64,000 bases of DNA, taken from IMG/VR virus record IMGVR_UViG_2639762884_000001. One strand, 5' to 3'. Shown here in pieces: positions 41,850-61,257 of this stretch (positions within the stretch are counted from its first letter, which is position 1; each line of letters opens with the position of its first letter). The position numbers and the translations under genes are program-made. The notes under the pieces were generated by a model, which saw nothing but the letters and a program-made list of their open reading frames with translations, did not search any database and was not told the DNA's origin. Source of the stretch: a virus (lineage: Duplodnaviria; Heunggongvirae; Uroviricota; Caudoviricetes).

Positions 41850-41880
41850 TGGTGGAAAAAAAATTTTATATCGGTAAAAA

Positions 41881-41899
41881 TAGGTAAGTATTTACTTAG
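41881..41899. promoter_or_regulatory. class B motif (TAGGTAAGTATTTACTTAG)
   Basis: Perfect TAAGTA-TT-TACTTA palindrome upstream of the tail fibre gene. Confidence 0.55.
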
Positions 41900-41942
41900 T
41901 TGCGGACAAGGATAACCCGCCAAATCAAGGAGCATATTCAAC

Positions 41943-44900
41943 ATGTGGTACAGGGAAGGTACTATCACATTTACACAGGGTAGCAATACTCTGGTTGGGG
42001 CAGGGACAGCCTGGAACGTAACAGCTAATGGTGTGTTGCCGGGGATGATCGTCATTGGCCCCGACAATAAGCTGTATGAGATCAAGCGCGTAATAAGCGA
42101 TACGAATATTGTTCTCTCAGAACCTTATACCGGCGAAACTCAGTCTGAGGTTCCGTGCCGAATCATTACGACCTATGAAGGCGACTTAACACAGTTTAGC
42201 GCGCGCTTTACTGCGCTAATGTCGCGTATGTCGGCTGATTCCAAGTCCATGCGCAGTTGGTTGACTGCGCTGGATGAGGTGACAATCGAGCGTGAAGACG
42301 GTACAGAAGTGACCGTTAAGCCGCTGATACAGATTGTCAACGAGCACAACGAAAACGTTGAGTGGTATAAAAATAACACCGACGCGATTGACGCTGCTGG
42401 CGACAAAGCTCGTGAGGCGGCGGCCAGTGCTGCCGCAGCAGCAGAAAGCGCCAATACCGCTGGAGAAAAAGCCTCTCAAGCGTCTCAAAGTGCATCCGCT
42501 GCAGAGTCCTCAAAAAGCGCGGCGGCCACCAGTGCCGGTGCCGCGAAAACGTCTGAAACGAATGCTGCAGCGTCACAAAAATCTGCAGCCACTTCTGCAT
42601 CCACCGCGACCACGAAGGCGTCAGAAGCTGCCACCTCAGCCCGGGATGCGGCGGCCTCAAAAGAGGCAGCGAAATCATCAGAAACGAGCGCAGCCTCGAG
42701 CGCCAGTAATGCCGCTTCCTCGGCAACGGCGGCAGGAAATTCCGCGAAGGCGGCAAAAACGTCCGAGACGAACGCCAGGTCTTCTGAAACGGCAGCGGGA
42801 CAGAGCGCCTCAGCTGCGGCAGGCTCAAAAACAGCGGCTGCATCATCTGCCAGTGCCGCGTCAACAAGTGCCGGGCAGGCCTCAGCCAGTGCCACCGCCG
42901 CCGGAAAATCGGCAGAAAGCGCCGCATCATCCGCTTCAACAGCCACAACGAAGGCTGGCGAAGCCACTGAACAGGCCAGCGCAGCAGCGAGGTCAGCTTC
43001 CGCAGCGAAGACATCCGAAACGAACGCGAAAGCGTCGGAAACCCGTGCAGAATCCTCAAAAACGGCAGCCGCATCGTCCGCCAGTTCGGCAGCGTCATCG
43101 GCATCATCTGCGTCTGCTTCAAAAGATGAGGCGACCAGACAGGCGTCAGCAGCGAAGGGCAGCGCCACGACGGCATCCACGAAAGCAACAGAGGCGGCAG
43201 GCAGTGCGACGGCAGCATCTCAGAGCAAAACTGCTGCTGAATCCGCTGCGACCCGTGCGGAAGCTGCTGCTGATCGTGCTGAAGAGATTGCCGGTGCAGT
43301 TGCGATGGAAGACGCAAGCCTTACAACTAAAGGTGTTGTGAAACTTAGCAGTGCTGTCGATAGCACCAGTGAATCGCTGGCCGCAACGCCAAAAGCAGTT
43401 AAGGCCGCATATGATAATGCTGAAAAAAGACTACAGAAGGATCAGAATGGTGCTGATATCCCAGACAAGGGCCGCTTCCTGAGTAACATTAATGTTTACA
43501 GCAAAGGTGAAGTGGATAAGAAAAAGGGGATGCGAAAATACACTTTCTCTGCTCCTGCAAATGCAGTAAGCGGTAAGTGGTATCCTGTAGTCTTTCGCCG
43601 AACTGGTGGTGGCACAGATGAATTAGCCTCACGAGTGGTTATCACCACTTATTCCTCAGCTGGCGGATACGCTATGAATAATTGTGAGTTTAATGGTTTT
43701 GTTATGCCGGGCGGTTGGTCTGATCGCGGTTCATATGCTGTTGGTTTTTTCTCAATATATTCAACCGTTGAACGATCTATACACTCGATTATCGCAAGCG
43801 TGAAAGATGATGATTTGTGTAGTGTATTTTACGTTGAGACAAGAGCATTCCCTATCCAGATTTTTGCTGAGGAAGGATTAAATGTGATTGTTCCAACGGC
43901 TGATTATGCAGTTGGTCAAACCACTTATAAGTGGGGGGCCACTGATCCTTTATCAGAAAGTACGAATGCACAGATAATTTTGGACTTTAAAAATGGACGA
44001 GGTTATTACTGTTCACATCCATTTATTTCAAGTCTTTCAGGAAATGCTGCTACAGCAACGAAATTACAGACGGCAAGATCTATCGGTGGAGTTGGTTTCG
44101 ACGGTTCTGCCAATATTAATCTTCCAGGTGTAAACACTACGGGTAATCAGAACACCACTGGTAATGCCGCAACTGCTACAAAACTACAGACGGCAAGAAC
44201 TATCGGCGGCGTGAGCTTTGATGGTACTGCAAATATTAATTTGCCAGGTGTTAATACGACTGGTAATCAGAATACAACAGGTAATGCGGCTACTGCTACG
44301 AAGTTGCAGACTGCGCGTACTATTAATGGGGTGTCGTTTGACGGTTCGGCAAATATTTCCTTGTCACCAGCAAATATAGGTTGCCCAGCATCTCCTACTG
44401 GTTGGTTAACTACAGGAAGTAATGGCGGAGCAATAACAACAGCCCAGTTAGTGACGTTATTGCAAAATAATGGAGCCTTTAACACAAAGGCATGGATTGC
44501 TCGATGTGCGTGGGCCTATGCCAATAGCGCAACCATACCAAATAGTGAAACTGGTTGTGGCGTTATTCCATTGGCAGGAGCTGTTATAGAAGTATTTAAT
44601 AACGGTAGTAGTTCAAATAATTATACGATCCGCATAACAACGGCCACAACGACAAGTGTTTCCGGTGCTCTCACTAATGCGGAGTTTATCTATGTATTTA
44701 ATGGCACAGATTATTCTCCAGGATGGCGAAGAGTATATAACACGAAAAACAAACCAACAGCCTCTGATGTCGGTGCATTACCTCTTACCGGTGGTACATT
44801 ATCTGGAGGTTTGACATCTTCTGGCGAGATCATTTCAAAATATGCAAATGGTTTCCGCATTGCTTACGGTAGCTTTGGGTTCTTTATCCGTAATGATGGA

Positions 44901-45980
44901 TCGAACACATATTTCATGCTAACAGCATCAGGAGACACATTAGGTTCATGGAACGGTTTGCGACCTATTACAATTAATAATACCAGCGGTGCTGTATCAA
45001 TTGGTAATGGACTAAATGTGACTGGTGGCGTAAATGGTAGTTTGAACGGTAATGCTTCAACAGCTACGAAGTTGCAAACAGCGAGAAACATCAATGGTGT
45101 TAAGTTTGATGGCTCAGGCGATATCAACATTAATACATTGGTATCTCGTGGCCGAGTTACGGCGTTAAGCGGTTCTACTCAAGGTACTGCTGGCATTCAA
45201 ATGTACGAGGCGTACAACAATAGCTACCCGACCACGTATGGCAACGTATTGCACATGAAAGGTGCGAGTGCTGCTGGTGAGGGCGAGTTGCTTATTGGCT
45301 GGAGTGGTACGAGCGGTGCACATGCGCCGGTTTTCATTCGCTCCAGAAGAGATACCACTGATGCGGCATGGTCAGCGTGGGCGCAGGTATATACCGCTAA
45401 GGATTCAATCCCTGGTGTGAATACAACCGGTAATCAGAATACTACTGGTAATGCCGCAACAGCCACAAAATTGCAGACAGCAAGGAAAATTGCTGGTGTG
45501 GCGTTTGATGGCTCTGCCGATATAACTTTGACTGCGGCTAACCTTAATGCTTACACGAAAACAGAGGTAACAAACCTTCTAAGTTCCTATGTGAAGAGCA
45601 GTGCTCTTCCAAGCATGACTGTGCGAACTTCCTCTGTTTCAGGTGGGGATATGGGCATGAGCTTGTCCGCATTCATTAGCCACCTAAAATCAAATGGGGC
45701 GTTTAGCAAAAGTTATTGGATTGGCTTTGGCGATGCTATGGGATTCAATGCTGGCAGTATCAACAATATAACGGGATTTGGTGCTGTAGAATTAGCAGAA
45801 TCTATAATCGAAGTTTTTAATCTACCTAACGGTGATTATACAATTCGTTTAACAACGTCACATAAAGCTGACTACGGTGGAGTTACAAACGCAATCCTCG
45901 TTTATCACTACCGTAGTAATAGAAGTCCGTCAGGTCAATGGCTGAAATTTGCAGGTACTGTTGGGGCAACAAGTAACTGA
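41943..45980 (+). CDS. side tail fibre protein
   Basis: 1345 aa; long Ala/Ser/Thr-rich low-complexity stalk (about 42400-43300) and repeated GNQNTTGNAATATKLQTAR-I-GV-FDGSANINL units typical of phage tail-fibre repeats. Confidence 0.8.
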   Translation: MWYREGTITFTQGSNTLVGAGTAWNVTANGVLPGMIVIGPDNKLYEIKRVISDTNIVLSEPYTGETQSEVPCRIITTYEGDLTQFSARFTALMSRMSADSKSMRSWLTALDEVTIEREDGTEVTVKPLIQIVNEHNENVEWYKNNTDAIDAAGDKAREAAASAAAAAESANTAGEKASQASQSASAAESSKSAAATSAGAAKTSETNAAASQKSAATSASTATTKASEAATSARDAAASKEAAKSSETSAASSASNAASSATAAGNSAKAAKTSETNARSSETAAGQSASAAAGSKTAAASSASAASTSAGQASASATAAGKSAESAASSASTATTKAGEATEQASAAARSASAAKTSETNAKASETRAESSKTAAASSASSAASSASSASASKDEATRQASAAKGSATTASTKATEAAGSATAASQSKTAAESAATRAEAAADRAEEIAGAVAMEDASLTTKGVVKLSSAVDSTSESLAATPKAVKAAYDNAEKRLQKDQNGADIPDKGRFLSNINVYSKGEVDKKKGMRKYTFSAPANAVSGKWYPVVFRRTGGGTDELASRVVITTYSSAGGYAMNNCEFNGFVMPGGWSDRGSYAVGFFSIYSTVERSIHSIIASVKDDDLCSVFYVETRAFPIQIFAEEGLNVIVPTADYAVGQTTYKWGATDPLSESTNAQIILDFKNGRGYYCSHPFISSLSGNAATATKLQTARSIGGVGFDGSANINLPGVNTTGNQNTTGNAATATKLQTARTIGGVSFDGTANINLPGVNTTGNQNTTGNAATATKLQTARTINGVSFDGSANISLSPANIGCPASPTGWLTTGSNGGAITTAQLVTLLQNNGAFNTKAWIARCAWAYANSATIPNSETGCGVIPLAGAVIEVFNNGSSSNNYTIRITTATTTSVSGALTNAEFIYVFNGTDYSPGWRRVYNTKNKPTASDVGALPLTGGTLSGGLTSSGEIISKYANGFRIAYGSFGFFIRNDGSNTYFMLTASGDTLGSWNGLRPITINNTSGAVSIGNGLNVTGGVNGSLNGNASTATKLQTARNINGVKFDGSGDININTLVSRGRVTALSGSTQGTAGIQMYEAYNNSYPTTYGNVLHMKGASAAGEGELLIGWSGTSGAHAPVFIRSRRDTTDAAWSAWAQVYTAKDSIPGVNTTGNQNTTGNAATATKLQTARKIAGVAFDGSADITLTAANLNAYTKTEVTNLLSSYVKSSALPSMTVRTSSVSGGDMGMSLSAFISHLKSNGAFSKSYWIGFGDAMGFNAGSINNITGFGAVELAESIIEVFNLPNGDYTIRLTTSHKADYGGVTNAILVYHYRSNRSPSGQWLKFAGTVGATSN

Positions 45981-46100
45981 TTTAGACATTATTTATATGG
46001 CTGTGAGGTTTAAAATGCGATCTCACAGCCGCAATCATAGGGATATATTAGTGAGTTACTAGATACGAATTTGAACAGCCGTTAAACGGCATATGCATAG

Positions 46101-46120
46101 ATAGGTAAGTATGTACCTAT
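46101..46120. promoter_or_regulatory. class B motif (ATAGGTAAGTATGTACCTAT) with adjacent TATAAT
   Basis: Intergenic, upstream of the putative lysis cassette. Confidence 0.5.
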
Positions 46121-46182
46121 AATTGAAAGGAGAAGTGTGATATAAATCCGCCATCCCGATTTGACTTTTCATGGAGGAAAAT

Positions 46183-46506
46183 ATGTCGAACGAGATGGCG
46201 GGCGTTACAACAGAGCAAGTTGAGCGTATTGCCGCGATCGTTGCTCGGGAGGTTGTTGGTAAATTAGGTAAAGAGCTACGTGAAGAAATTGGCCAGGAGG
46301 TCAATGATCAGCTGAAAACCTACTTTGGTGATATGACCCCGGCGCAACATAGTATTCAACACTCCAATCTGGACAAACTCCTTAACCGGTTAGATTCCAT
46401 CTCCAGTGGGTTCTTTGGCGGCATTGTTTCTAAAATAACGTCGTTCATTATTACTGCACTGCTTTTGGGGTTAGCCGCGTATGGCGTAAAAAATGGACTG
46501 CAATAA
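46183..46506 (+). CDS. small membrane protein with C-terminal transmembrane helix (holin candidate)
   Basis: ATG at 46183 with GGAGGA RBS; C-terminal ITSFIITALLLGLAAYGV; position ahead of the spanin genes. Confidence 0.4.
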   Translation: MSNEMAGVTTEQVERIAAIVAREVVGKLGKELREEIGQEVNDQLKTYFGDMTPAQHSIQHSNLDKLLNRLDSISSGFFGGIVSKITSFIITALLLGLAAYGVKNGLQ

Positions 46507-46519
46507 CAGGAGATCAAGG

Positions 46520-47212
46520 ATGAAGACTCCGAGAGGCATTCGTAATAATAACCCCGGTAATCTTGATAAAGGATCACCGTGGCAAGGTCTGGTTGCGAAT
46601 CCAGACGAACCGCGCTTTTGCACGTTTAAAGACCCTGTTTGGGGGATTCGTGCGCTGGCGGTGACTCTAATTACCTACCACGACAAACGTCGCGCAAAAG
46701 ACGGCTCAAGTATCGATACCATTCGTGAAGTTATTGAACGTTGGGCACCGCCGAATGAAAACAATACTGACGCCTACATTAATGAGGTGTCTAAAGCCGT
46801 TGGTGTAACCGCAGACATGATCATCGATCTGCATGATTACGACATCCTTCGACCTTTGGTTGAGGCAATCATTCGCCATGAGAATGGGCGAGGTCCGCTA
46901 AAAACGCTGAACACCTGGTATGCGGCAGAAGTTATTGAGGAAGGTCTGCGTCGAGCTGGCGTCGTTAAGCCGGTGAAAACCGTGAAGGCTGTTCCTGTAA
47001 CTAAAGAAACCGCAGGCGCAACTGTCACAGCAGGTATTGGTCTGGCGCAGCTGGCCGATGTTATGCAGCAGGTTTCCGCTGCTATGGATAAAGCACAAGG
47101 TCATATCTCTAGCGGGGATACAGTACGCATCATCTTCGGTATTGCCACTATTGTTGTGGCAGGATTCATTGCCTGGTCGCAGGTAAGAAAACACCAGAAA
47201 GGGATGGTCTAA
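46520..47212 (+). CDS. putative cell-wall-acting (endolysin-like) protein with C-terminal membrane segment
   Basis: N-terminal GIRNNNPGNL...W motif (domain family not firmly recalled), C-terminal hydrophobic helix; call is mostly positional. Confidence 0.35.
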   Translation: MKTPRGIRNNNPGNLDKGSPWQGLVANPDEPRFCTFKDPVWGIRALAVTLITYHDKRRAKDGSSIDTIREVIERWAPPNENNTDAYINEVSKAVGVTADMIIDLHDYDILRPLVEAIIRHENGRGPLKTLNTWYAAEVIEEGLRRAGVVKPVKTVKAVPVTKETAGATVTAGIGLAQLADVMQQVSAAMDKAQGHISSGDTVRIIFGIATIVVAGFIAWSQVRKHQKGMV

Positions 47213-47213
47213 T

Positions 47214-47465
47214 ATGCTAGGCAGCCTGATGACAAAGCTAAAAGTTGCTTTGATTACGCTGGCTGCCGTTCTTTTCGTTCTTGTCGGCGCTTACACGATG
47301 GGCGGAAATGCGGCGCGACGAGCAATGGAAGAGAAGGCAAAACAGGAAGACAGAAAACGACTTCAAAGCACAGTGGATGTCAAAAATGAAACGGTTAATG
47401 AAGTGCGGCAAAAAGATGCCTCTGGTGTTCATCGCGAGCTGTTTGATAAATGGGTGCGTGATTAA
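47214..47465 (+). CDS. i-spanin (Rz-like) candidate
   Basis: N-terminal transmembrane helix followed by a charged helical periplasmic region; an o-spanin-like ORF is nested in another frame. Confidence 0.55.
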   Translation: MLGSLMTKLKVALITLAAVLFVLVGAYTMGGNAARRAMEEKAKQEDRKRLQSTVDVKNETVNEVRQKDASGVHRELFDKWVRD

Positions 47466-47613
47466 GACGCAGGCTCCAGGCGTGCTATTCTGCGATGCTG
47501 CAAATCCTATCTATGTGAGTAGAGAGGATTTTATGACTGAGGAAACGGAGCGACAGTTGCTTATCCACAATACGATAGGTGAAAGGCTGTGTGAGTGGGG
47601 GCACCTGAACTGA
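47386..47613 (+). CDS. o-spanin (Rz1-like) lipoprotein candidate, overlapping and extending beyond the i-spanin gene
   Basis: MKRLMKCGKKMPLVFIASC signal peptide with IASC lipobox; starts inside 47214..47465 in a different frame. Confidence 0.5.
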   Translation: MKRLMKCGKKMPLVFIASCLINGCVIKTQAPGVLFCDAANPIYVSREDFMTEETERQLLIHNTIGERLCEWGHLN

Positions 47614-47837
47614 GTCGATGATTGATGAGTGGTCTCAGTTTACCTTTTATCCTAAAGATGGCATCTTCACTCATATACACGCCTGTTCACTCAAGCTCAT
47701 GTTGAATCATTTAGTAATTTGATGTAGATTTATTAGGCATCCACGTAAGTGGACACATACAGGCTACGCATCCTCGTAGCCTTCAACCCCGAGAGGGGTG
47801 CCGCAATGACACTTGTGTTAACGGCTAAGGTGGACAC

Positions 47838-48221
47838 ATGCTGAACGAGAAACGTTCTATACAAACTATTCGCGATTGCACGAGTATTATCGAGACTCAT
47901 GTGCTGAATCAGCACAAGCTTGAAGTACGTAAGCTCAATAATGACGCTATTGAACCGGAAGACTCACGCTTCATCGTTACCTTCAAAGACGATGTTGAGC
48001 GCGCTGGTGCAAGCGTGAAGCCATTAGCTGAAGCAATTTACCTGAATGGTCGTGTTCGTTTTGTAGTCAAGCCAGCTAAACAGTACCCTGAGCTGTCTCG
48101 TTTTATCGAGGCTTTTTCGGAGGTTATTGAACATTCTATTCGCCGCTTCTTACGCAATCATGGTAGCATTGTCAGCACGGTTAAGGCTGATGATTCTGCT
48201 ACAAAATGGCTCCTACACTAG
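47838..48221 (+). CDS. hypothetical protein (127 aa)
   Basis: ORF; upstream region carries direct repeats GTGGACACAT at about 47748 and 47826. Confidence 0.45.
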   Translation: MLNEKRSIQTIRDCTSIIETHVLNQHKLEVRKLNNDAIEPEDSRFIVTFKDDVERAGASVKPLAEAIYLNGRVRFVVKPAKQYPELSRFIEAFSEVIEHSIRRFLRNHGSIVSTVKADDSATKWLLH

Positions 48222-48958
48222 ATAGCGCATATTCAAAAGATCTAAGCGAGTTTCCTCATAAAGGGGAGACTCGTGTTGTTCGTTTTGGCTTTCTTATCAA
48301 TGAAGCCTCCCTCTATAAAATCTCAGAAATTGAAATCATTGAACCAGAAGATGACATTTGCCTGTATGTCTCTATGGAACGTGTAGGTGCGCGCGACCAA
48401 GGCGACCTGAGCGAATTCATCTTAGATCGAGCGGATGAAGATGCCCCTGAAGAAGAGATTATCAAAGAGGTGCTCCAGTCCGGGCTTCTGGACGAAAACA
48501 AAAATACGATCGCTGGTAGGATAGCTCTGCGTGAATATAGTTTTGTTGAAGACGGTAATGAGATCGAATGTTACCAGGTAGCCGGTGTCGAAACTGTCAG
48601 AGAGCGTCGTCAGCGAGGATTGTGTCACCGTACCTATCTCTTTCTTCTTCATTGGTATGAGCATTTAGTCTGCGACGATACACAAACCATTCCTGGTGCT
48701 AAGATCTGGGCAGGGCCTCTCATGCGAACCGGCGATGTGCGTATATACAATGCCAAAACAGAAACGTTCGAGGATGTGTTAGGTGAGTACGGGATGGGGA
48801 AAGAAACCGGATTTTTGCCGTGGAACAGAGGATTGTTGCTTGATGCAGAGTTAAGCTCTTGGCTCCCAAACAAAGTGCAAGTTAACGTTCAGAAATTTAT
48901 CGTACTTATCATCTCCCGCAAAACAAGAACTCCAGTAGGTTTATACCTAAAAGATTAA
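48206..48958 (+). CDS. hypothetical protein (250 aa)
   Basis: ORF overlapping the upstream gene end; strong terminator downstream. Confidence 0.5.
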   Translation: MAPTLDSAYSKDLSEFPHKGETRVVRFGFLINEASLYKISEIEIIEPEDDICLYVSMERVGARDQGDLSEFILDRADEDAPEEEIIKEVLQSGLLDENKNTIAGRIALREYSFVEDGNEIECYQVAGVETVRERRQRGLCHRTYLFLLHWYEHLVCDDTQTIPGAKIWAGPLMRTGDVRIYNAKTETFEDVLGEYGMGKETGFLPWNRGLLLDAELSSWLPNKVQVNVQKFIVLIISRKTRTPVGLYLKD

Positions 48959-48976
48959 AAATCAGGCGACTTTGGT
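48954..48976. terminator. bidirectional Rho-independent terminator
   Basis: AGGCGAC-TTTG-GTCGCCT flanked by AAAAA and TTTTT. Confidence 0.85.
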
Positions 48977-49083
48977 CGCCTTTTTGTTAACAGCCATTGA
49001 TTCTCGCCTAAAAATTCTAAGGCAGCACCTACCATTTAACCTTTACACCACAGCCGTAGGCATTTAGGCTATATCACATATAA

Positions 49084-49099
49084 GAAAACAAGTTGTTTC
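49084..49099. promoter_or_regulatory. class A palindrome (GAAAACAAGTTGTTTC)
   Basis: 35 nt upstream of the ParA-like gene. Confidence 0.55.
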
Positions 49100-49133
49100 A
49101 GACGATAATTATATACGCAAAGGGAACTCTCCA

Positions 49134-49802
49134 ATGACCAAGATCTTTGTGGTTGGCGGCACAAAGGGCGGGCCTGGCAAATCCACCGTTGCCCAGCAAA
49201 TTGCCGTTTGCCTGAAAGTCAAAAAGAAGAAGAAGGTTTATATCACCGATATAGATATTCAGCGCACGACAACGAGCTGGTGTGAAGACCGTCGACAGAA
49301 CGAAGATCTTGAGCTGATTCCTTTTGCATACGTTCAAGATGACATCATTAAGCACCTAAAATCGCTTCAGGGTAGAGCTGAGTATGTAGTGGTAGATGCT
49401 GGTGGCTTTGACTCCGAAATTCAGCGACAAGCGATGCTGATGGCCGACGTTATCATTATCCCGCTGCGTCCTAAGCGTCGTGATTTGAAATCTTTACGTG
49501 ACATCGATCCTATTATCGACAATGTTCGCAATGTAAACGACAAAGTGAAAGTCCGCGCGGTCATGAACCAATGCCCGGCTTTGCCATCACAAGTGTCTCG
49601 CATTCTAGCGGCTAAAGAGATTGTCGAGACGTTTGGCATCGAGTCTGCGCCAGTCAATCTATATAACCGCAACGTCTATGATGATGCGGAAGAGTCTGGT
49701 CGTTCTATCTTTGAAATGACCGGTAGCGAGCGCGACAAAAAGGCGGAAGCCGAGTTTGAAGAATTTGTAGATTATCTGTTGAGTCTGGAGGAAGAAGAAT
49801 AA
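49134..49802 (+). CDS. ParA/MinD-family partition ATPase (small type)
   Basis: Deviant Walker A GGTKGGPGKST, VVVDAGG Walker B-like region; 222 aa. Confidence 0.8.
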   Translation: MTKIFVVGGTKGGPGKSTVAQQIAVCLKVKKKKKVYITDIDIQRTTTSWCEDRRQNEDLELIPFAYVQDDIIKHLKSLQGRAEYVVVDAGGFDSEIQRQAMLMADVIIIPLRPKRRDLKSLRDIDPIIDNVRNVNDKVKVRAVMNQCPALPSQVSRILAAKEIVETFGIESAPVNLYNRNVYDDAEESGRSIFEMTGSERDKKAEAEFEEFVDYLLSLEEEE

Positions 49803-50161
49803 TGTCCATGAAAATGGGTGACCTAGCAAAGCGCAAAGAGCCTGATGCACCGGCTAAGAACACAACTCCTTTGCGCCAACCAATCAGACCACAGGGACGC
49901 CCGACTCGTGGCAAAGAGAAAATTAAAAGCCGCACGATGTCACTGGAAGACGAATACTTCGAACTGCTGGAGATGATGAAGTTCATCCCTCGCTTCGAGA
50001 AGTTCACCCGTTCTGACGTGATTCGCGCAGCCATTTTCCATCTGGCAGAGAAGTCACCGCAGGAAATCGAGGACATCGTGAAACTTAACGAGGCGATCAC
50101 TGCTGCCGATGTCACGATGCGTACCGATGAAATTAAACGCGAGTTAATGAAGAAAGGTTGA
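49802..50161 (+). CDS. small partition-associated DNA-binding protein (ParG/ParB-like, putative)
   Basis: 119 aa, basic disordered N-terminus and helical C-terminus; translationally coupled to the ParA-like gene (TAATG). Confidence 0.5.
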   Translation: MSMKMGDLAKRKEPDAPAKNTTPLRQPIRPQGRPTRGKEKIKSRTMSLEDEYFELLEMMKFIPRFEKFTRSDVIRAAIFHLAEKSPQEIEDIVKLNEAITAADVTMRTDEIKRELMKKG

Positions 50162-50221
50162 TATAAATCTCTAAGGCTGGTCTGCATTGGACAGCCTTAG
50201 AAATATTTCGTTCTATGAAAG

Positions 50222-51295
50222 CTATTCGTAGTTAAGCTCACCGAACAGACTGAACATCAAGTCACCATCCAAAATTTCAAAGGGCAACTCGACATACTCA
50301 TCCTTATGTCTCGGAATTGCGTTGCCGTCGTTAGGGGCATTCTTGGTATAACCTTTTACATGTTTACCGTTTTCTTTTGTATACGGCAGCACGACAATTC
50401 GACCGTGATTTTTTGAAATGATAGTTCCTTCTTTCCAGAGCGTATTGCCTCTTGAGGTGGTTTCGCTTTCGCTAGCAACTTTAACACTCCAACCTACCTG
50501 ATTTTTGTCCTCAAACCAGAAAACAAAGTTGCCAACAACCAGTACCTTTTGCCCATTCCTGAGAGCTTCATCCAGCATTCTTTTTACGCTGGCGAGTTGC
50601 AGTAACCGGTTAGCACGCGGCAGAAGCATTGAGCGAATAGTCGCTTTTGTTTTTCCCCAATGTGCAGCGCCTGATAAACCAAAACCTCTGGCTATGCGTT
50701 CTTGGTAGCAGATCTTCGCTGTCTTAGCTTTGTTGTTATATGAACATTCCCAAGTGTTAGGAGCAACGAGTTGAAGTGAAACTTGGAATTTGGGAAGAAA
50801 AACAAAATGTAAGTAAGGCATCTCGCTTAGCACGTCAAAAAGGGGTTGACGCAAAGTTTCGTAATCTGGGTTAATTATTAACTCATTTAATGTCACTCGC
50901 GGATCGTTGGCGTGTGCCTTAATTGCTTCGTTGAGCATTATATGCTCTTCATCCATGAGACGTGATTTGGCTTTGAGTGCTTTGTCAACTTTCAAACGCA
51001 ATGACTTCTTTTGAAACATAGATAGAGGAAGTTTTTCAATGTCAAAGCTCACGTTTTTATTCAGCTCTAATGCCGCTTTTCTTGCTTCAGGATAGTTATC
51101 GTAGTCGTCATCAAAAGCGTGGTTTGGCATACCACGATCAACATATCGCCGATACCAAGCAAGGGTTCCATCATTACGGAGTTTCAGACAGAACATCGAC
51201 CATTTATTCCGTTCATATTTAGGCTGAGGCCAAAAAGCCAGTTCGGGAAGGCCATATCCTGGAAGTCTATTCATGCGCATGGTGACAATATCCAC
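50222..51295 (-). CDS. hypothetical protein (357 aa)
   Basis: Long ORF convergent with the partition genes; no motif recognised. Confidence 0.5.
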   Translation of the reverse strand: MDIVTMRMNRLPGYGLPELAFWPQPKYERNKWSMFCLKLRNDGTLAWYRRYVDRGMPNHAFDDDYDNYPEARKAALELNKNVSFDIEKLPLSMFQKKSLRLKVDKALKAKSRLMDEEHIMLNEAIKAHANDPRVTLNELIINPDYETLRQPLFDVLSEMPYLHFVFLPKFQVSLQLVAPNTWECSYNNKAKTAKICYQERIARGFGLSGAAHWGKTKATIRSMLLPRANRLLQLASVKRMLDEALRNGQKVLVVGNFVFWFEDKNQVGWSVKVASESETTSRGNTLWKEGTIISKNHGRIVVLPYTKENGKHVKGYTKNAPNDGNAIPRHKDEYVELPFEILDGDLMFSLFGELNYE

Positions 51296-51399
51296 GAGGC
51301 TAAAACACTGATTCTAACATGATCTCCCTTGATAAATCTGTCAATGACATAGCATCTGGGGTTGGAGTCAAATTATGTTGTTCTTGGTATCCATTAGGA

Positions 51400-51455
51400 G
51401 CCTGTTTCTGTATATAAATAATAAGTAACTTATTAAATATATACGGAAGCAGGTC
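51400..51455. repeat. 57-bp imperfect palindromic element, copy 2
   Basis: gcctgtttctgtatataaataataagtaacttattaaatatatacggaagcaggtc; copy of 19401-19457. Confidence 0.8.
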
Positions 51456-51536
51456 TTTTAAAAGACACCACCAGACCAACTCCCTTCCGTTTTCACTTCC
51501 AAAAACTGACACCAGTCGCTATCATCCGCTCATTGT

Positions 51537-51557
51537 GATAAGTAAGTAACTACCTAC
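51537..51557. promoter_or_regulatory. class B motif (GATAAGTAAGTAACTACCTAC)
   Basis: Immediately upstream of 51561. Confidence 0.45.
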
Positions 51558-51560
51558 CAG

Positions 51561-52310
51561 GTGAGCCACATGAGCCAAATCTTTTTCGATACCATCGACA
51601 ACGACCAGTACGACTTCATGACAGAGTGGAATACCGCTGTTATGGACAAGTGGGTCGCTGAAAACATTGGTTTGTCGCGCTGTAAAGACGAGGCTGAACT
51701 CTTCGAGACGAAGTGGTTTGATTACCGCGACATGCATCCTCTGATGGCCACCTGTCTATTTACGGAGGCATACAAACGTCAGTACTCAAATATCATGCTG
51801 ACGCACGGTCGCGAACACTTTGAAACAGCTCCGTTCACCACCGGGTTAAAACGCCTGCCTTATCAGGAGTTGTCGACTGCCAATAAAACGTCGCTATGGA
51901 AAGCACGCCAGTTTGCTGACCGCTATTGCTGCTCATACGACTACTTTATCTCCACCGTTCTTTCCGCAGCTGCACGACGACTGTGGGACAAGCTGCCGCG
52001 TCCGCAGCATTTGTGGCAGCCAGAACTGATTGAGATATTTGAAGATAAATTAGCCAGACGCGCAACAACCCGTCTGGATGACTCTCTGGTTAGCTTTAAG
52101 CATATGGGAGACATGCAGTTCAACCCGATTCAGGAAAGCTATTTTGAGTGGATTCTGGAGCGTTTACGCGCCATCCCCCGCAGCAAGCGCATACGCGCAA
52201 TTTTCTCCGCTATCTGGCTAATGGAAATCGTTCCAGAGCGCCTTATTTCCGCCCACTTTCCAGAAGAACTGGAAGAAGCACGGCGGTTTATTGATCCCCT
52301 ATCTAATTAA
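51561..52310 (+). CDS. hypothetical protein (about 246 aa) at the head of the replication gene block
   Basis: Track start is GTG 51561; ATG at 51570 is an alternative. Confidence 0.5.
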   Translation: MSHMSQIFFDTIDNDQYDFMTEWNTAVMDKWVAENIGLSRCKDEAELFETKWFDYRDMHPLMATCLFTEAYKRQYSNIMLTHGREHFETAPFTTGLKRLPYQELSTANKTSLWKARQFADRYCCSYDYFISTVLSAAARRLWDKLPRPQHLWQPELIEIFEDKLARRATTRLDDSLVSFKHMGDMQFNPIQESYFEWILERLRAIPRSKRIRAIFSAIWLMEIVPERLISAHFPEELEEARRFIDPLSN

Positions 52311-52320
52311 CTAATACTAG

Positions 52321-52334
52321 AAAACAATTTGTTT
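52321..52334. promoter_or_regulatory. class A palindrome (AAAACAATTTGTTT)
   Basis: 20 nt upstream of the DnaB-like helicase ATG. Confidence 0.55.
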
Positions 52335-52353
52335 AAAAAACAAAGGAAAGCAC

Positions 52354-53694
52354 ATGACCGAACTTTGCCATACAGGACGCGGGCTGTCCGAAGAGTTTGA
52401 TGAAGATTTCCAGAACAGACTGACGGCATATTTTTGTCGTGATCACGAGTTTCTTACTCGTGCGGGAGATCTGGTTGTGCCTAGCCAATTTGCCAATGCG
52501 GCCAATGCCATATTGGTTAATATGGTTTCGGGCTATTACCGTATGTACAAGAGCGCGCCCTCTTCATCTGCAATTCTGGATATGCTTAAGCGTGCGAAAC
52601 GCGATAAGACTATCCGTGAGGAACTATTCGCCGATGTTGTTGCTGCGTTTAAGCGCATCCTTGCAGAAAAATTGTCCGATACCTCGTACATGGTTGACCA
52701 GGTATCAACCTTCGCAAAAAGCGTAGCGTTTGATGATGCTCTGATTAAGGCTGCTGAACTGAAAGAGAAAGGCGACTTTCAGGGGGCGATGGCAATCATG
52801 GCCAAGGTTCAGCAGATTGGATCGAACGAAGCGACCGGAATCTATGACTACTACACCTCCGCAAGTGAGCGATTGAAAGCGCGTGAATATGAGGCTTCAG
52901 AGGAGTATGTGCCAAACAGCATTACAACTGGACTCCCTCTGCTCGATAGGTTGTTGTACCAAAAAGGCTGGGCGAAGCGTGAAATGGTGCTCTTCATGGG
53001 GTTCGCTAAATCCGGTAAATCGACCGCAATGGGTGAGTTTTCCATAAACGCAACGCTTGCTGGCTACAATGTTCTGTATCTCTCGCTGGAGGTTCACACC
53101 ACCATTTTATCCGACCGTTTTGATGCAAGATTGTCGGAGACAGAAATGTCCAAGCTAGTGGAACGGCGCGATGAGGTTCATCGTAAGTTGGCAGAGTTGG
53201 GAGCCACGAAGGGGATTGGTAGTTTGTGGGTGGTTGAGCGTCCGTCAGGAAGTATGTCACCGGCAGATCTGGACCGTATGCTTAACAGCATGAAAGCCAA
53301 CGGCATGGTGCCTGACATGGTTGTTGTCGACTACGCAGATTTGATGCGTGCCAGTTATGACCTTCGTGATGATCGCGCCAACATTCGTAGTATCTACACC
53401 GATTTACGTGCTCTTTATGACAAACATAACGTTGCTGGAATCACGGCATCGCAGACAAACCGTGAAGGTGGCGCGTCAGAAGTTGCCACAATGATGCACG
53501 CCGCCGACAACATCGAAAAAGTACGTATTGCTGACCTGGTAATAACGATCAACAAAACCGAAGAAGAAGAAGCGAAAGGAGAGGCTCGTCTCTACTTTGC
53601 TGGTTCACGTAACCAGCAGGGAGGGATCAGCATTCGCGTTAAACAAAACCTCGAACAAATGCGCTTCATTGAGCGAATCTTAGACGTTACCTAA
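52354..53694 (+). CDS. DnaB-family replicative helicase
   Basis: RecA-like C-terminal domain with Walker A GFAKSGKST, VVDYADLM, SQTNREG; N-terminal helical domain. Confidence 0.85.
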   Translation: MTELCHTGRGLSEEFDEDFQNRLTAYFCRDHEFLTRAGDLVVPSQFANAANAILVNMVSGYYRMYKSAPSSSAILDMLKRAKRDKTIREELFADVVAAFKRILAEKLSDTSYMVDQVSTFAKSVAFDDALIKAAELKEKGDFQGAMAIMAKVQQIGSNEATGIYDYYTSASERLKAREYEASEEYVPNSITTGLPLLDRLLYQKGWAKREMVLFMGFAKSGKSTAMGEFSINATLAGYNVLYLSLEVHTTILSDRFDARLSETEMSKLVERRDEVHRKLAELGATKGIGSLWVVERPSGSMSPADLDRMLNSMKANGMVPDMVVVDYADLMRASYDLRDDRANIRSIYTDLRALYDKHNVAGITASQTNREGGASEVATMMHAADNIEKVRIADLVITINKTEEEEAKGEARLYFAGSRNQQGGISIRVKQNLEQMRFIERILDVT

Positions 53695-53775
53695 AAAATA
53701 AGCGTGGAGAACACCTCCACGCTTGATTCATTGGTGAAACAACTTTTCTTTTGCCAAACCACAAAAGAAAAACAC

Positions 53776-54957
53776 ATGAGCCTTTATGTTATATCAACAT
53801 TTAGGTTGGTCACAATATTGCCTGTTAAAAGTGGAATTATCGTGAGCGAGCTGAAAGAGCTAATTACCGAATTAGATTTTGAACAATGGTTGGACACTGA
53901 AGGTATCGTTTATCGACGTGGAGGCGTGAGTGCTCGCGGTCGTGAAGTGAATATCAAGGAGTGTCCGGTATGCGGCAGCTCCAACTGGAAGGTATATTTC
54001 AATCTGACCAGTGGCGTCGGCAAATGCTTCGCTGGTGATCATCCCGAAGAGATTCAGTTCAATAAGCTGGTCTTCCTCAAGCACTACAGCGGTAAATCAC
54101 GACGACAGTTCGAGGAATATGTGCAGAACGCTCTTCTTTCCCAGGGGTGGGCACCAAAGAAAGAAGAGATAGTGCTTACAAGCACAGTCGAGTTAGAGGG
54201 ACCACTTGCACTCCCTCGTCATTACGAACTTCCTATAGATGGCCGTCTTCCAGACTATCTGGTTGAACGAAACATATCGCCTGAAATGGCAAAGTATTTT
54301 GACCTACGATACTGCGTCGAAGGCAAGCACGCTTATGTAGATCCGTATACAGATCAGGTAAAAGGACAGATATTCGATATGCGAGTACTGATACCGGTTT
54401 ACGATCTGGATGGGGTAATGAAGACATTTCAGGGACGAGACATTACCGGTACAGCAGACCGCCGCTACCTCTTTCCTATGCAGCTTCCAGCTTCAGGTAA
54501 GTTTCTCTACAACGGCCATAATGCAGTTGGCAAACAGACTGTAGTTGTCTGTGAGGGGGCGTTCGATGTTATGGGAGTTAAACGAGCTATTTTTGACGAA
54601 GAAACATTACGTGATTACGTGGAACCAATAGGAACGTTCGGGATGCATCTATCTGGCAACACCACTCAGGATGCAGAAGATCAGCTGGGCGCGTTCCTGA
54701 CGCTCAAGGCGCGTGGATTACGTAATGTGATCATGATGTGGGATAGTGAAAAGCAAGCTATACGCAACACTATGGCCGCAGCCAGGCGACTCACAAGTAT
54801 TGGTCTTAATGTCAAAGTTGCGTGTTTGGGCGAGGAAGGACTCGACCCCGGCGATGCGACACCGGGGCAGATTATCAAAGCCTACTATTGCGCAAAACCT
54901 TATTCACGACAGCTTGAACTCTTAAGCAAGGTGAAAGGCATTGCAGCACTAGTTTGA
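53776..54957 (+). CDS. DNA primase (zinc-finger plus TOPRIM)
   Basis: CPVCGSSNW...GKCFAGDH zinc ribbon and VVVCEGAFD TOPRIM-like motif; the start is uncertain (track 53704). Confidence 0.75.
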   Translation: MSLYVISTFRLVTILPVKSGIIVSELKELITELDFEQWLDTEGIVYRRGGVSARGREVNIKECPVCGSSNWKVYFNLTSGVGKCFAGDHPEEIQFNKLVFLKHYSGKSRRQFEEYVQNALLSQGWAPKKEEIVLTSTVELEGPLALPRHYELPIDGRLPDYLVERNISPEMAKYFDLRYCVEGKHAYVDPYTDQVKGQIFDMRVLIPVYDLDGVMKTFQGRDITGTADRRYLFPMQLPASGKFLYNGHNAVGKQTVVVCEGAFDVMGVKRAIFDEETLRDYVEPIGTFGMHLSGNTTQDAEDQLGAFLTLKARGLRNVIMMWDSEKQAIRNTMAAARRLTSIGLNVKVACLGEEGLDPGDATPGQIIKAYYCAKPYSRQLELLSKVKGIAALV

Positions 54958-61086: not shown

Positions 61087-61161
61087 GATGGTGTAGCTCA
61101 GCGGTAGAGCAGTTGGCTGTTAACCAACTGGTCGGTGGTTCGAATCCACCCACCATCGCCA
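61087..61161 (+). tRNA. tRNA-Asn (anticodon GUU)
   Basis: Acceptor GATGGTG/CACCATC, D-arm TAGCTCAGCGGTAGAGCA, anticodon arm GTTGG-CTGTTAA-CCAAC, T-arm GGTGGTTCGAATCCACC; genomically encoded CCA. Confidence 0.85.
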
Positions 61162-61166
61162 ATTTA

Positions 61167-61253
61167 GGAGAGTTAGTCCGTAGAGGTAGCGGGGTAGACT
61201 GTAAATCTACTGTCATTGCGACTCGGGTGGTTCGACTCCATCACTCCCCACCA
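61167..61253 (+). tRNA. tRNA-Tyr-like (anticodon GUA), class II
   Basis: Anticodon arm GTAGA-CTGTAAA-TCTAC, T-loop TTCGACT, variable arm; acceptor stem has one mismatch; ends in CCA. Confidence 0.55.
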
Positions 61254-61257
61254 AATT

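What the first reader, a model, noticed from the sequence alone, without database searches (positions are those of the whole stretch)
49084..51295. ParA/ParG-type partition module inside the phage genome, with a convergent 357-aa unknown gene
A small ParA (deviant Walker A GGTKGGPGKST) is translationally coupled to a 119-aa basic protein and preceded by a class A palindrome. Partition modules are a hallmark of phage-plasmids, yet the element appears contiguous with chromosomal metG. The adjacent minus-strand 357-aa protein has no recognisable motifs and could be a replication initiator or accessory factor. The centromere is not obvious upstream of parA; the iteron clusters at 7.8 and 11.0 kb are candidates.
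Basis: partly seen in the sequence, partly recalled or inferred. Interest (0 to 1): 0.55.

Follow-up and report, generated by a model that had tools for sequence, protein, structure and literature searches.

The report
Phage-plasmid partition cassette with cargo gene
This is the plasmid-segregation cassette (a small ParA ATPase plus an uncharacterised small basic partner) of a common SSU5/pHCM2-type phage-plasmid of E. coli, and the neighbouring unknown gene is unrelated swappable cargo that elsewhere sits in anti-phage defence islands, so the finding is largely ordinary.

Summary
The genes are real and at the stated coordinates. The window is not a prophage next to chromosomal metG. It is an SSU5/pHCM2-type phage-plasmid, and relatives are deposited as circular plasmids of about 110 kb and as phage genomes. 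The metG-apbC segment is a diverged second copy carried on these plasmids.

The parA gene and the 119-aa gene form a discrete 1.14-kb block (49027-50164). This block is conserved in about 740-800 plasmid records, is under strong purifying selection, and has a variable cargo slot on each side. ParA is a small Walker-type ATPase of the type Ib class; its closest solved relative is ParF of TP228. The partner is a family restricted to this lineage, with a very basic disordered N-terminal tail. A ribbon-helix-helix (ParG-like) fold is plausible but not demonstrated.

No centromere repeat array was found. The best candidate is a par-specific, near-invariant 40-nt segment of the 107-nt leader. The 13-bp palindrome is not par-specific: it marks about 11 backbone promoters and persists in Yersinia pMT1, which lacks this cassette.

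The "357-aa" gene (352 aa from its ATG) fills the downstream slot in only about a fifth of relatives. It matches no known domain or fold. Its homologues lie in prophage and defence hotspots, so it is a candidate defence gene and not a replication initiator.

The parts
48964..48981 (+). Terminator-like hairpin plus T-run ending the preceding cargo gene. It lies outside the conserved par block.
   Evidence: Terminator scan; sequence. Homology to relatives starts only at 49024-49027.
49027..49133 (+). The 107-nt par leader. It is the only non-coding DNA that travels with the par genes in all relatives, and it holds the promoter, the palindrome and the 5'-UTR.
   Evidence: The left boundary of homology falls at 49024-49027 in Cyrano, SSU5 and pJN2-26, although each has different DNA upstream.
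49027..49066 (.). Par-specific, near-invariant upstream segment (ACCTACCATTTAACCTTTACACC.CAGCCGTAGGCATTTAGGC). It carries ACC and GGC boxes in 8-bp phase. It is the best candidate for the partner's operator or centromere (inferred).
   Evidence: At most 2 mismatches per sequence among five relatives whose parA synonymous sites are saturated (dS 1.1-1.9). It is not shared with the other palindrome-bearing promoters and is unique in the window.
49086..49098 (.). 13-bp palindrome AAACAAGTTGTTT downstream of a -10-like hexamer. It is one of about 11 copies of a backbone-wide operator-like element.
   Evidence: 26 strand-matches against 3.3 expected, with 0 of 100 shuffles reaching that number. In-register alignment of the sites. 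The element is retained in pMT1/pFra, which lacks this par cassette. No stable RNA hairpin is predicted (z = 0.2).
49134..49802 (+). parA: small (222 aa) deviant-Walker-A ATPase of the ParA/MinD superfamily, type Ib class.
   Evidence: phrog_164 2e-51. Pfam AAA_31, MipZ, CbiA, ParA and VirC1. Best solved relative is ParF of TP228 (4dzz), 3e-10 over residues 9-199. NF041546 ParA_partition scores 115 bits, below its cutoff of 180. dN/dS 0.04-0.05.
49802..50161 (+). Partner gene (119 aa; alternative starts at 49808 and 49814). The protein has a conserved N-terminal MGDLAKR peptide, a variable linker, a basic RPQGRPTRGK stretch and then a helical core with a ribbon-helix-helix-like pattern. It is the putative centromere-binding and ParA-stimulating protein.
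   Evidence: phrog_5111 1e-79. Only 47 clusters were found, all in SSU5-type elements and none with a Pfam domain. Alignment. AF2 model with residues 1-47 disordered and four helices. pI values. Weak aCcr1 (ribbon-helix-helix) hit at 2e-4. Weak similarity to the partner of a Pantoea type Ib ParA, which itself has a sub-threshold RHH_1 hit.
50170..50201 (.). Hairpin between the convergent genes, probably a bidirectional terminator. It belongs to the cargo slot, not to the par block.
   Evidence: Folding energy is -17.7 and -18.5 kcal/mol on the two strands, z = -3.5 and -4.0. Homology to relatives ends at 50163-50164.
50222..51280 (-). Cargo gene of 352 aa (the GTG ORF extends to 51295, giving 357 aa). 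It belongs to a widespread family of unknown function and is a candidate defence or accessory gene.
50165..51389 (.). Variable cargo slot between the par block and the replication module (249-aa gene, DnaB-like helicase, primase).
   Evidence: Homology breakpoints against Cyrano, SSU5 and pJN2-26. Across relatives the slot is empty, or holds a 160-aa gene, a PDC-S31/DUF2971 gene, or this gene.
47594..49026 (.). Second variable cargo slot, upstream of the par block. Here it holds two unknown genes of 127 and 250 aa.
   Evidence: Homology breakpoints. Cyrano carries a KacT toxin-antitoxin pair here, and SSU5 and pJN2-26 carry other genes.

Best explanation
The window is part of an SSU5/pHCM2-type phage-plasmid that lives as a circular plasmid prophage of about 110 kb. 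Positions 49027-50164 are its segregation cassette.

The cassette has one promoter and two tightly coupled genes. The first encodes a small Walker-type ParA ATPase (type Ib class). The second encodes a 119-aa partner specific to this lineage.

Inferred mechanism: the partner dimerises through its helical, probably ribbon-helix-helix core. It binds DNA in the conserved 107-nt leader, most likely the par-specific segment 49027-49066, and so both autoregulates the operon and marks the plasmid. Its basic, disordered N-terminal tail, with the conserved MGDLAKR peptide, contacts ATP-bound ParA on the nucleoid and stimulates its ATPase. Plasmid copies are thereby moved apart, as in ParF/ParG of TP228.

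The operon's promoter also belongs to a family of about 11 backbone promoters that carry the palindrome AAACAAnTTGTTT just downstream of the -10 element. Par expression is therefore also wired into a phage-wide regulator that is not the partner protein.

The convergent 352/357-aa gene is not part of the cassette. It is a stand-alone cargo gene, with its own terminator, in a recombination hotspot, and it is most likely an anti-phage or anti-mobile-element defence gene.

Shown here: gene identities, ParA class, block boundaries, conservation and selection, dispersal of the palindrome, and the variability and contexts of the cargo gene. Inferred: DNA binding by the partner, the site it binds, ATPase stimulation, and a defence role for the cargo gene.
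For: Identity of the element. The region is 100% identical to a circular 110-kb plasmid typed IncFIB and non-mobilizable. There are 737 plasmid and 11 phage records with matches, including SSU5. The literature places SSU5, pHCM2 and pMT1 in one phage-plasmid supergroup (PMC7969092), and SSU5 parB and the repB-parA region serve as recognition markers in a screening study (bioRxiv 10.1101/2025.09.12.675607).

ParA class. The protein is 222 aa with KGGPGKST and no N-terminal DNA-binding domain. Its best solved relative is ParF, at 3e-10 over nearly its full length.

Coupling and co-inheritance. The stop and start codons overlap or lie within 12 nt. The pair is present together in every relative inspected. 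tblastn finds the partner in 797 plasmids.

Selection. dN/dS is 0.02-0.12.

Partner architecture. A conserved N-terminal peptide, a variable linker, a basic stretch and a helical core. The partner of a 30%-identical Pantoea ParA shows the same core pattern.

Discrete block. Homology breakpoints fall at 49024-49027 and 50163-50164 in three independently rearranged relatives. The leader stays near-invariant while synonymous sites are saturated.

The palindrome is a backbone element.

Cargo status and defence contexts of the 352-aa gene.
Against: No repeat array typical of a centromere was found in or next to the block.

The ribbon-helix-helix fold of the partner has no significant support.

The ParA score is below the NCBIfam partition-ATPase cutoff.

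The 8-bp phased ACC/GGC boxes are low-information and are not recognisably conserved in the most divergent lineage (L013).

Nothing here shows function. The defence role of the cargo gene rests only on genomic neighbourhood, and PADLOC 2.0 has no model for it.

The window covers only 64 kb of about 110 kb, so other maintenance systems on the element were not examined.
Confidence: 0.75

Rival explanations
1. The dispersed palindromes AAACAAnTTGTTT are the centromere sites of this ParA/119-aa system. They would double as promoter operators, as in the dispersed sopC sites of phage-plasmid N15, the omega sites of pSM19035, or the KorB operators of RK2 (comparisons from own knowledge).
For: About 11 copies are spread over the window, including one in the par leader, far above chance. 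They sit at a fixed position in promoters. No other repeat family lies near par.
Against: Yersinia pFra/pMT1 lacks parA and the 119-aa gene and uses a type Ia ParAB. It still keeps the palindromes in the same promoter contexts: 7 matches against 1.6 expected in the first 50 kb. A backbone factor must therefore bind them. The FljA-like protein and two ParB_N-domain proteins are conserved backbone genes and are candidates.
Confidence: 0.12
2. ParA and the 119-aa protein do not segregate the plasmid. Instead they serve another positioning or regulatory role, for example organising phage replication or packaging, or acting as a transcription-factor pair.
For: No centromere was identified. The cassette sits between the lysis genes and the lytic-type replication genes (helicase, primase) rather than beside the plasmid replicon. 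Its promoter shares the phage-wide palindrome.
Against: pMT1, which has lost this region, carries a different, complete ParAB system. This suggests that the function being replaced is partition. The small ParA plus small co-translated partner arrangement is the canonical type Ib layout, and ParF is the nearest solved relative.
Confidence: 0.08
3. The 119-aa protein is a RelE/ParE-type toxin, as annotated in phage Cyrano. The locus would then be an addiction module rather than a partition module.
For: This rests only on the depositor's product name in OV696614.1.
Against: No Pfam, NCBIfam or PADLOC match to any toxin family. The protein has a disordered basic tail and a helical core. It always follows a ParA ATPase, never an antitoxin.
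Confidence: 0.02
4. The 352/357-aa protein is a replication initiator or an accessory factor of the par or rep machinery.
For: It lies between the par operon and the helicase-primase module. A Pantoea plasmid homologue lies within 5 kb of partition genes.
Against: It is absent from most relatives, which keep par and the replication genes intact. Homologues occur in chromosomal lambdoid, P2-like and Mu-like prophages and in defence islands. No Rep, HTH or nuclease domain was detected.
Confidence: 0.04
5. The element is an integrated, non-replicating prophage beside chromosomal metG, and its par genes are relics.
For: metG and apbC are normally chromosomal housekeeping genes, and they lie in the same window.
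Against: The metG-apbC copy matches plasmid-borne copies at 95% or more and the chromosome at only about 90%. The flanks are collinear with circular plasmids of 100-116 kb. The par genes are intact and under purifying selection. No chromosome junction is visible anywhere in the 64 kb.
Confidence: 0.02

Closest known systems
ParF-ParG-parH of Salmonella plasmid TP228 (type Ib partition)
   Same: A small Walker-type ParA without a DNA-binding domain; ParF is the best solved relative at 3e-10. The partner is a small protein encoded immediately downstream, with a flexible basic N-terminal tail ahead of a compact core. An operator or centromere is expected upstream of the ATPase gene.
   Different: The partner is 119 aa, against 76 aa for ParG as I recall the sequence. 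It shows no detectable sequence or profile similarity to ParG and carries two extra C-terminal helices. No array of tetramer boxes is evident; only a unique 40-nt conserved segment was found.
delta-omega system of pSM19035 (ribbon-helix-helix global regulator that is also the centromere-binding protein; own knowledge)
   Same: A small ParA with a small regulator-like partner, and operator-like sites at several promoters of the element.
   Different: Here the dispersed sites persist in an element that lacks the partner, so the partner is probably not the global regulator. The repeats are 13-bp palindromes, not heptad arrays.
Partition systems of other phage-plasmids: P1 ParAB-parS, N15 SopAB with dispersed sopC, pMT1 ParAB (own knowledge)
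   Same: The same biological role: keeping a low-copy plasmid prophage in both daughter cells. pMT1 is a member of the same supergroup.
   Different: Those systems are type Ia, with a ParA of about 400 aa and a ParB of more than 300 aa carrying HTH and ParB_N domains. This one is type Ib with a 119-aa partner.
Single-gene defence candidates in prophage hotspots (for example PADLOC candidate PDC-S31/DUF2971, and the P2 and P4 hotspot systems, the latter from own knowledge)
   Same: The 352-aa gene occupies the same slot that holds PDC-S31 genes in SSU5, pJN2-26 and Cyrano. Homologues lie beside Gabija, HEPN-Toprim, AbiTii, SLATT/SMEK, AAA_15/21 ATPases and SIR2-HerA, and in the gpA-portal gap of a P2-like prophage.
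   Different: It matches no defence model in PADLOC 2.0 and no known domain or fold. No phenotype is known.

Membership tests
Type Ib ParA partition system (ParF/ParG-like) | Small (about 200-230 aa) Walker-type ParA with the deviant Walker A motif KGGxxK[ST] and no N-terminal DNA-binding domain | tested here: met
   222 aa, with K11GGPGK16ST starting at residue 11 and Walker B YVVVD88. Pfam AAA_31, MipZ, CbiA and ParA match. ParF (4dzz) aligns over residues 9-199 at 3e-10. It scores below the NCBIfam ParA_partition equivalog cutoff (115 against 180 bits).
Type Ib ParA partition system (ParF/ParG-like) | Second gene immediately downstream, co-expressed, encoding a small centromere-binding protein | tested here: inconclusive
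   Gene position and coupling are met: TAATG overlap or a gap of at most 12 nt, with the pair always co-inherited. DNA binding itself was not testable.
Type Ib ParA partition system (ParF/ParG-like) | Partner has a ribbon-helix-helix fold (ParG or omega type) | tested here: inconclusive
   The sequence pattern SRTMSLEDEYFELL...FTRSDVIRAAIFHL and the helices at 48-59 and 70-82 fit. Weak aCcr1 hit at 2e-4. A weak chain runs through a Pantoea partner to RHH_1 at E = 0.09. Negative results: Pfam, a PDB profile search, Foldseek, and hhalign against ParG and CopG. The structure model was a monomer, in which the ribbon cannot form.
Type Ib ParA partition system (ParF/ParG-like) | Cis-acting centromere made of repeats adjacent to the operon | tested here: inconclusive
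   No repeat family was found within 48900-51600. The only co-inherited non-coding DNA is the 107-nt leader. Its 40-nt upstream part is near-invariant and unique, but its 3-nt boxes in 8-bp phase carry little information.
Type Ib ParA partition system (ParF/ParG-like) | Stabilises a low-copy replicon in a ParA-ATPase-dependent way | not testable with these tools
   This needs a plasmid-loss assay.
SSU5/pHCM2-type phage-plasmid | Collinear backbone shared with SSU5 and pHCM2-like plasmids: structural, lysis, par, helicase-primase and regulator genes | tested here: met
   Matches to SSU5, Cyrano, PhiR41_1 and 737 plasmids. L001 aligns to window 40900-54903 at 99.7%. pMT1 aligns to window 10.2-42.4 kb.
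SSU5/pHCM2-type phage-plasmid | Exists as an extrachromosomal circular replicon | not testable with these tools
   Near-identical relatives are deposited as circular plasmids of 100-117 kb. The physical state of the molecule from which this window came cannot be read from the sequence.
RelE/ParE toxin (annotation of the 119-aa homologue in phage Cyrano) | Match to a RelE/ParE toxin domain and pairing with an antitoxin | tested here: not met
   No toxin family in Pfam, NCBIfam or PADLOC. The upstream gene is a ParA, not an antitoxin.
Plasmid replication initiator (proposed for the 357-aa protein) | Rep-type domain, adjacency to iterons, and conservation in all members of the replicon family | tested here: not met
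   No domain was detected. The gene is absent from most relatives. Homologues occur in chromosomal prophages.
Known anti-phage defence systems (PADLOC-DB 2.0) | Profile match of the 352-aa protein to a described or candidate defence protein | tested here: not met
   No hit at E <= 0.1. Only neighbourhood evidence links it to defence.
Dispersed centromere-operator network (N15 sopC, RK2 KorB or pSM19035 omega type) | Dispersed palindromic sites whose presence depends on, and is bound by, this element's partition protein | tested here: not met
   The sites are dispersed. They persist in pFra/pMT1, which lacks parA and the 119-aa gene. Binding itself was not testable.

The most novel reading that the evidence does not exclude
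The 352-aa cargo protein defines an unnamed, widespread single-gene anti-phage or anti-mobile-element defence family. At least 346 homologues exist across Enterobacterales, Vibrio, Aeromonas, Shewanella and Pseudomonas. The confidently modelled N-terminal domain matches no known fold. The C-terminal motif (W..G.IISRN.G..I.LPY...G..V.GYT[RK]N) is nearly invariant and recurs in proteins with other N-termini. Phage-plasmids, P2-like, lambdoid and Mu-like prophages and defence islands all trade this gene through their cargo hotspots.
Probability: 0.4. Interest if true: 0.55.

Novelty: new member of a known kind. Interest (0 to 1): 0.33.

Why it matters
SSU5/pHCM2-type phage-plasmids are common in clinical E. 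coli, Shigella, Salmonella Typhi and Klebsiella, and they carry resistance and defence genes. How they are stably inherited has not been studied, as far as the searched literature shows.

This analysis narrows the segregation unit to a 1.14-kb block and a 40-nt candidate site that can be tested directly. It shows that the partner protein belongs to an unclassified family, and it corrects a toxin mis-annotation.

It also shows that the par block is bracketed by two cargo hotspots. One of the cargo genes is a widespread orphan family with the genomic signature of a defence gene. None of this is surprising to a plasmid or phage specialist, but it gives cheap experiments.

Tried and rejected
1. 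Ribbon-helix-helix fold of the 119-aa protein. A second database search with the family profile found only SSU5-type proteins.

3. Centromere search. Repeat finding in 48900-51600 gave only chance-level two-copy families. The large AT-rich palindrome at 51401-51453 was considered as parS. It was rejected because a copy sits at the late operon and persists in pMT1, and because it is degenerate or absent next to par in the L013/L015 lineage. The 13-bp palindrome was rejected as par-specific.

4. FljA link. E. coli K-12 fliC 5'-UTR shows no clear copy of the palindrome, so the idea that the FljA-like protein binds it remains unsupported by sequence.

5. RNA structure of the par leader: not stable.

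6. Integration next to chromosomal metG: rejected.
Full report
**What is at the coordinates**

ORF listing and direct reading confirm three genes.
- parA lies at 49134-49802 (+) and encodes 222 aa beginning MTKIFVVGGTKGGPGKST.
- A 119-aa ORF lies at 49802-50161 (+). Its ATG overlaps the parA stop codon (TAATG).
- A convergent ORF lies at 50222-51295 (-).

A hairpin at 50170-50201 sits between the convergent genes. It folds at -17.7 and -18.5 kcal/mol on the two strands (z = -3.5 and -4.0) and looks like a bidirectional terminator.

The small protein is basic: pI 9.6 overall and 11.4 for residues 1-45.

Two details need correcting.
- The third gene most likely starts at the ATG five codons inside the GTG ORF, giving 352 aa at 50222-51280. 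The deposited annotation, the PHROG profile and all database homologues start there.
- The small gene may start at 49802, 49808 or 49814. All three remain tightly coupled to parA.

**What the element is**

The 2.7-kb region is 100% identical to the circular 110,291-bp E. coli plasmid pRHBSTW-00849_2 (typed IncFIB, non-mobilizable). It matches 737 plasmid records from Klebsiella, Escherichia, Enterobacter, Salmonella and others. It also matches 11 phage records, including Salmonella phage SSU5, Escherichia phages Cyrano and PhiR41_1, and Klebsiella phage-plasmids.

The surrounding genes are a tail fibre, holin-endolysin-spanin, the par genes, a 249-aa protein, a DnaB-like helicase and a primase. 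Published work places SSU5, pHCM2 and pMT1 in one phage-plasmid supergroup (PMC7969092), and a screening study uses SSU5 parB and the repB-parA region as recognition markers (bioRxiv 10.1101/2025.09.12.675607). I found no paper in the library that characterises this par system functionally.

**The metG puzzle**

The window does carry metG and apbC at about 2.0-5.3 kb. This copy is at least 95% identical only to plasmid-borne copies (215 records; 222 places on plasmids). It is about 90% identical to the chromosomal metG-apbC locus present in every E. coli genome.

The first 12 kb of the window is collinear, at 97-99% identity, with replicons of 100-116 kb in 145 genomes. The remainder aligns with pMT1 (10.2-42.4 kb) or with pRHBSTW-00849_2 (40.9-61.7 kb). 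No chromosome junction is visible. The housekeeping genes are a diverged second copy carried as cargo.

**The par block is a discrete unit**

I aligned the window with five relatives. Homology begins at 49024-49027 and ends at 50163-50164 in Cyrano, SSU5 and pJN2-26, and each of these has different DNA on both sides.

- The upstream slot (47594-49026) holds two unknown genes here, a KacT toxin-antitoxin pair in Cyrano, and other genes in SSU5 and pJN2-26.
- The downstream slot (50165-51389) holds the 352-aa gene here and in Klebsiella phage p4727. It is empty in one Klebsiella lineage (L013) and holds a 160-aa gene in another (L015). It holds a PADLOC defence candidate (PDC-S31, DUF2971) in SSU5, pJN2-26 and Cyrano.

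Only 138 of 737 plasmid records cover at least 80% of the query that includes the 352-aa gene.

**ParA**

It is a 222-aa deviant-Walker-A ATPase with no extra N-terminal domain. Its best solved relatives are ParF of TP228 and an identical-length ParA (3e-10, residues 9-199), followed by MipZ and Soj. It matches phrog_164 'ParA-like partition protein' at 2e-51. It scores 115 bits on the NCBIfam partition-ATPase equivalog, below the cutoff of 180. By size and relatives it is type Ib.

Against relatives whose synonymous sites are saturated (dS 1.1-1.9), dN/dS is 0.04-0.05. The gene is therefore maintained, not decaying.

**The partner protein**

Two database searches found only 25 and then 47 clusters. 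All come from SSU5-type elements of Enterobacterales and none has a Pfam domain. tblastn finds the protein in 797 plasmids, always next to the ATPase.

The alignment shows this layout:
- an invariant N-terminal peptide, (K)MGDLAKR;
- a hypervariable linker;
- a conserved basic stretch, RPQGRPTRGK;
- a conserved core, SRTMSLEDEYFELL...FTRSDVIRAAIFHL;
- two further helices.

The AF2 monomer model has residues 1-47 disordered and helices at 48-59, 70-82, 86-97 and 101-118.

This is the layout of ParG or omega: a flexible ATPase-stimulating tail followed by strand, helix, helix. The core pattern resembles ribbon-helix-helix proteins, but the evidence is weak. It consists of:
- an NCBIfam aCcr1 hit at 2e-4;
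- a pairwise match (6e-4) to the 101-aa partner of a Pantoea plasmid ParA that is 30% identical to this one;
- a sub-threshold RHH_1 hit (E = 0.09) on the equivalent helix of that Pantoea protein.

Pfam, PDB profile, Foldseek and hhalign tests were all negative. I therefore call the fold probable but undemonstrated. The 'RelE/ParE toxin' label in phage Cyrano has no support.

**Where the centromere could be**

No repeat array exists in or beside the block. Because the block boundaries are so sharp, any cis site that moves with the genes must lie in the 107-nt leader or within coding sequence.

The first 75 nt of the leader (49027-49101) differ by at most two bases per sequence among five relatives whose coding synonymous sites are saturated. 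The 32 nt before the start codon vary freely.

The downstream half of that conserved stretch is a promoter-plus-palindrome unit shared with other promoters. The upstream 40 nt (49027-49066) are specific to par and unique in the window. They contain ACC boxes at 49031, 49039 and 49047 and GGC boxes at 49059 and 49067, in 8-bp phase and converging on a centre. This recalls the 8-bp phasing of ParG boxes (own knowledge), but the information content is too low to prove anything. This segment is my best candidate for the partner's operator or centromere.

**The palindrome is a backbone regulon mark, not a par feature**

AAACAAnTTGTTT, allowing up to 2 mismatches, gives 26 strand-matches against 3.3 expected, with 0 of 100 shuffles reaching that number. 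The strong sites are at 5369, 5420, 7033, 8228, 8712, 9615, 10379, 19495, 19520, 49086 and 52322.

In register, many of these sites (about seven of the eleven) show a -10-like hexamer about 20 nt upstream, then ..AC(C)A..AAGA, then the palindrome. At the six sites that precede an identified gene start, a Shine-Dalgarno sequence and a start codon follow 11-40 nt downstream. This places the palindrome early in the transcript or over the transcription start. No stable RNA hairpin is predicted, so a DNA operator is more likely.

Yersinia pFra/pMT1 provides a natural test. It lacks window 42.4-57.4 kb, including parA and the 119-aa gene, and uses a type Ia ParAB. It nevertheless keeps the palindromes in the same promoter contexts: 7 matches against 1.6 expected in its first 50 kb. 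The binding factor is therefore a backbone protein.

Candidates conserved in pMT1 are:
- a 200-aa homologue of the flagellin repressor FljA (PF03614, 1.7e-82; 77% identical in pMT1). FljA-type proteins are reported to act post-transcriptionally on fliC mRNA (PMC2652032).
- two ParB_N-domain proteins followed by an ABC-type ATPase.

I could not discriminate between them. The E. coli fliC leader has no clear copy of the palindrome.

**The 352-aa cargo gene**

It has at least 346 homologues of about 350 aa. Identity is 48% or more across Enterobacterales, Vibrio, Aeromonas, Shewanella, Colwellia and Pseudomonas, and all are labelled hypothetical.

An exhaustive profile search found 142 representatives. 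In about 25 of them the C-terminal motif (W..G.IISRN.G..I.LPY...G..V.GYT[RK]N) is joined to unrelated N-termini, and the ten of these that I scanned had no Pfam domain.

In the ten further neighbourhoods examined, beyond the phage-plasmid slot itself, the gene stands alone in mobile or defence DNA:
- beside Gabija-like genes in Vibrio and Pseudomonas, and beside HEPN-Toprim;
- beside a beta/cII pair like that of satellite P4;
- next to integrases in an Aeromonas island and a Salmonella lambdoid prophage;
- beside AbiTii in a Shewanella prophage;
- between SMEK and SLATT genes in a Pseudomonas prophage;
- in the gpA-portal gap of a Serratia P2-like prophage beside an AAA_15/21 ATPase;
- divergent from umuDC on a Pantoea plasmid and on a marine contig that also carries SIR2-HerA.

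This is the signature of a defence or accessory moron, not of a replication or partition protein. The mechanism is unknown.

**Verdict**

The core interpretation, a partition module of a phage-plasmid, is supported. The metG concern is resolved. The replication-initiator idea is rejected, and the palindrome is reassigned to a phage-wide regulon.

The par cassette is an ordinary component of a well-known element family, although its partner protein and centromere are uncharacterised. The most novel item is the cargo gene as a possible new defence family.

Noticed in passing
window 1993-5284: The phage-plasmid carries a complete second copy of the housekeeping genes apbC (1993-3093, -) and metG (about 3.1-5.3 kb, +). 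It is about 90% identical to the E. coli chromosomal locus and at least 95% identical only to copies on plasmids of about 100-116 kb (222 plasmid places). Why a phage-plasmid keeps a methionyl-tRNA synthetase is unexplained.
   Followed up: partly
window 5369, 5420, 7033, 8228, 8712, 9615, 10379, 19495, 19520, 49086, 52322: The 13-bp palindrome AAACAAnTTGTTT marks about 11 promoter and 5'-leader regions. Most copies lie 11-40 nt upstream of start codons. They include parA, the helicase gene, the late (terminase) operon and a cluster of small genes at 5-10.5 kb. The element is retained in Yersinia pMT1. It looks like the operator set of a phage-wide regulator.
   Followed up: partly
window 13261-13863 (-): A 200-aa homologue of FljA, the repressor of phase-1 flagellin (PF03614, 1.7e-82). 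It is conserved in 831 plasmids, including 62 Yersinia records. It is a candidate for the regulator acting at the palindromes, or it may repress host flagellin. Neither idea was tested.
   Followed up: partly
window 51401-51453 and 19400-19455: A 53-55-nt AT-rich near-perfect palindrome with GC clamps (RNA fold -30.8 kcal/mol, z = -8.4) occurs twice at about 93% identity. One copy lies upstream of the replication module and one upstream of the late operon. The late-operon copy is also in pMT1. It may be a regulated terminator or a protein-binding site.
   Followed up: partly
window 16186-18214: Two consecutive ParB_N-domain proteins (232 and 233 aa) are followed by an ABC-type ATPase (221 aa). 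These are backbone genes also present in pMT1. They may form a KorB-like or nuclease-like module rather than a second partition system.
   Followed up: no
window 7000-8200 and 10236-10329: A non-coding stretch of about 1.2 kb. Positions 7000-7700 are strikingly A+C-rich on the + strand. Three 30-nt repeats lie at 7089-7185 and are repeated at 10236-10329. Four 22-nt iteron-like repeats (..GAAACGGCTG..) lie at 7761-7889, with a lone copy at 11014. Their function (origin, incompatibility site or RNA) is unknown, and no link to par was found.
   Followed up: partly
window 47594-49026: The slot upstream of the par block is also variable. Here it holds two unknown genes (127 aa, phrog_2594; 250 aa, phrog_3307). 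In phage Cyrano it holds a KacT acetyltransferase toxin-antitoxin pair, and in SSU5 and pJN2-26 it holds other genes.
   Followed up: partly
L002 (phage Cyrano OV696614.1) 4776-5135: The homologue of the 119-aa ParA partner is annotated 'RelE/ParE putative toxin'. No toxin domain is detectable, so this is probably a mis-annotation.
   Followed up: yes
L004/L005/L006 (Pseudomonas), L026/L027 (Pantoea plasmid), L030 (marine contig): Homologues of the 352-aa protein lie directly upstream of a beta-protein/cII pair like that of satellite P4, in the position of gop, to which they are not similar. In two unrelated contexts they are divergently transcribed from a umuD-umuC operon, which hints at SOS-linked expression.
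   Followed up: partly
window 61087-61644 and 1566-1955: A cluster of four tRNA genes (Asn, Tyr, Thr, Ser) and a UmuD/HumD-like S24 peptidase gene are carried by the element.
   Followed up: no
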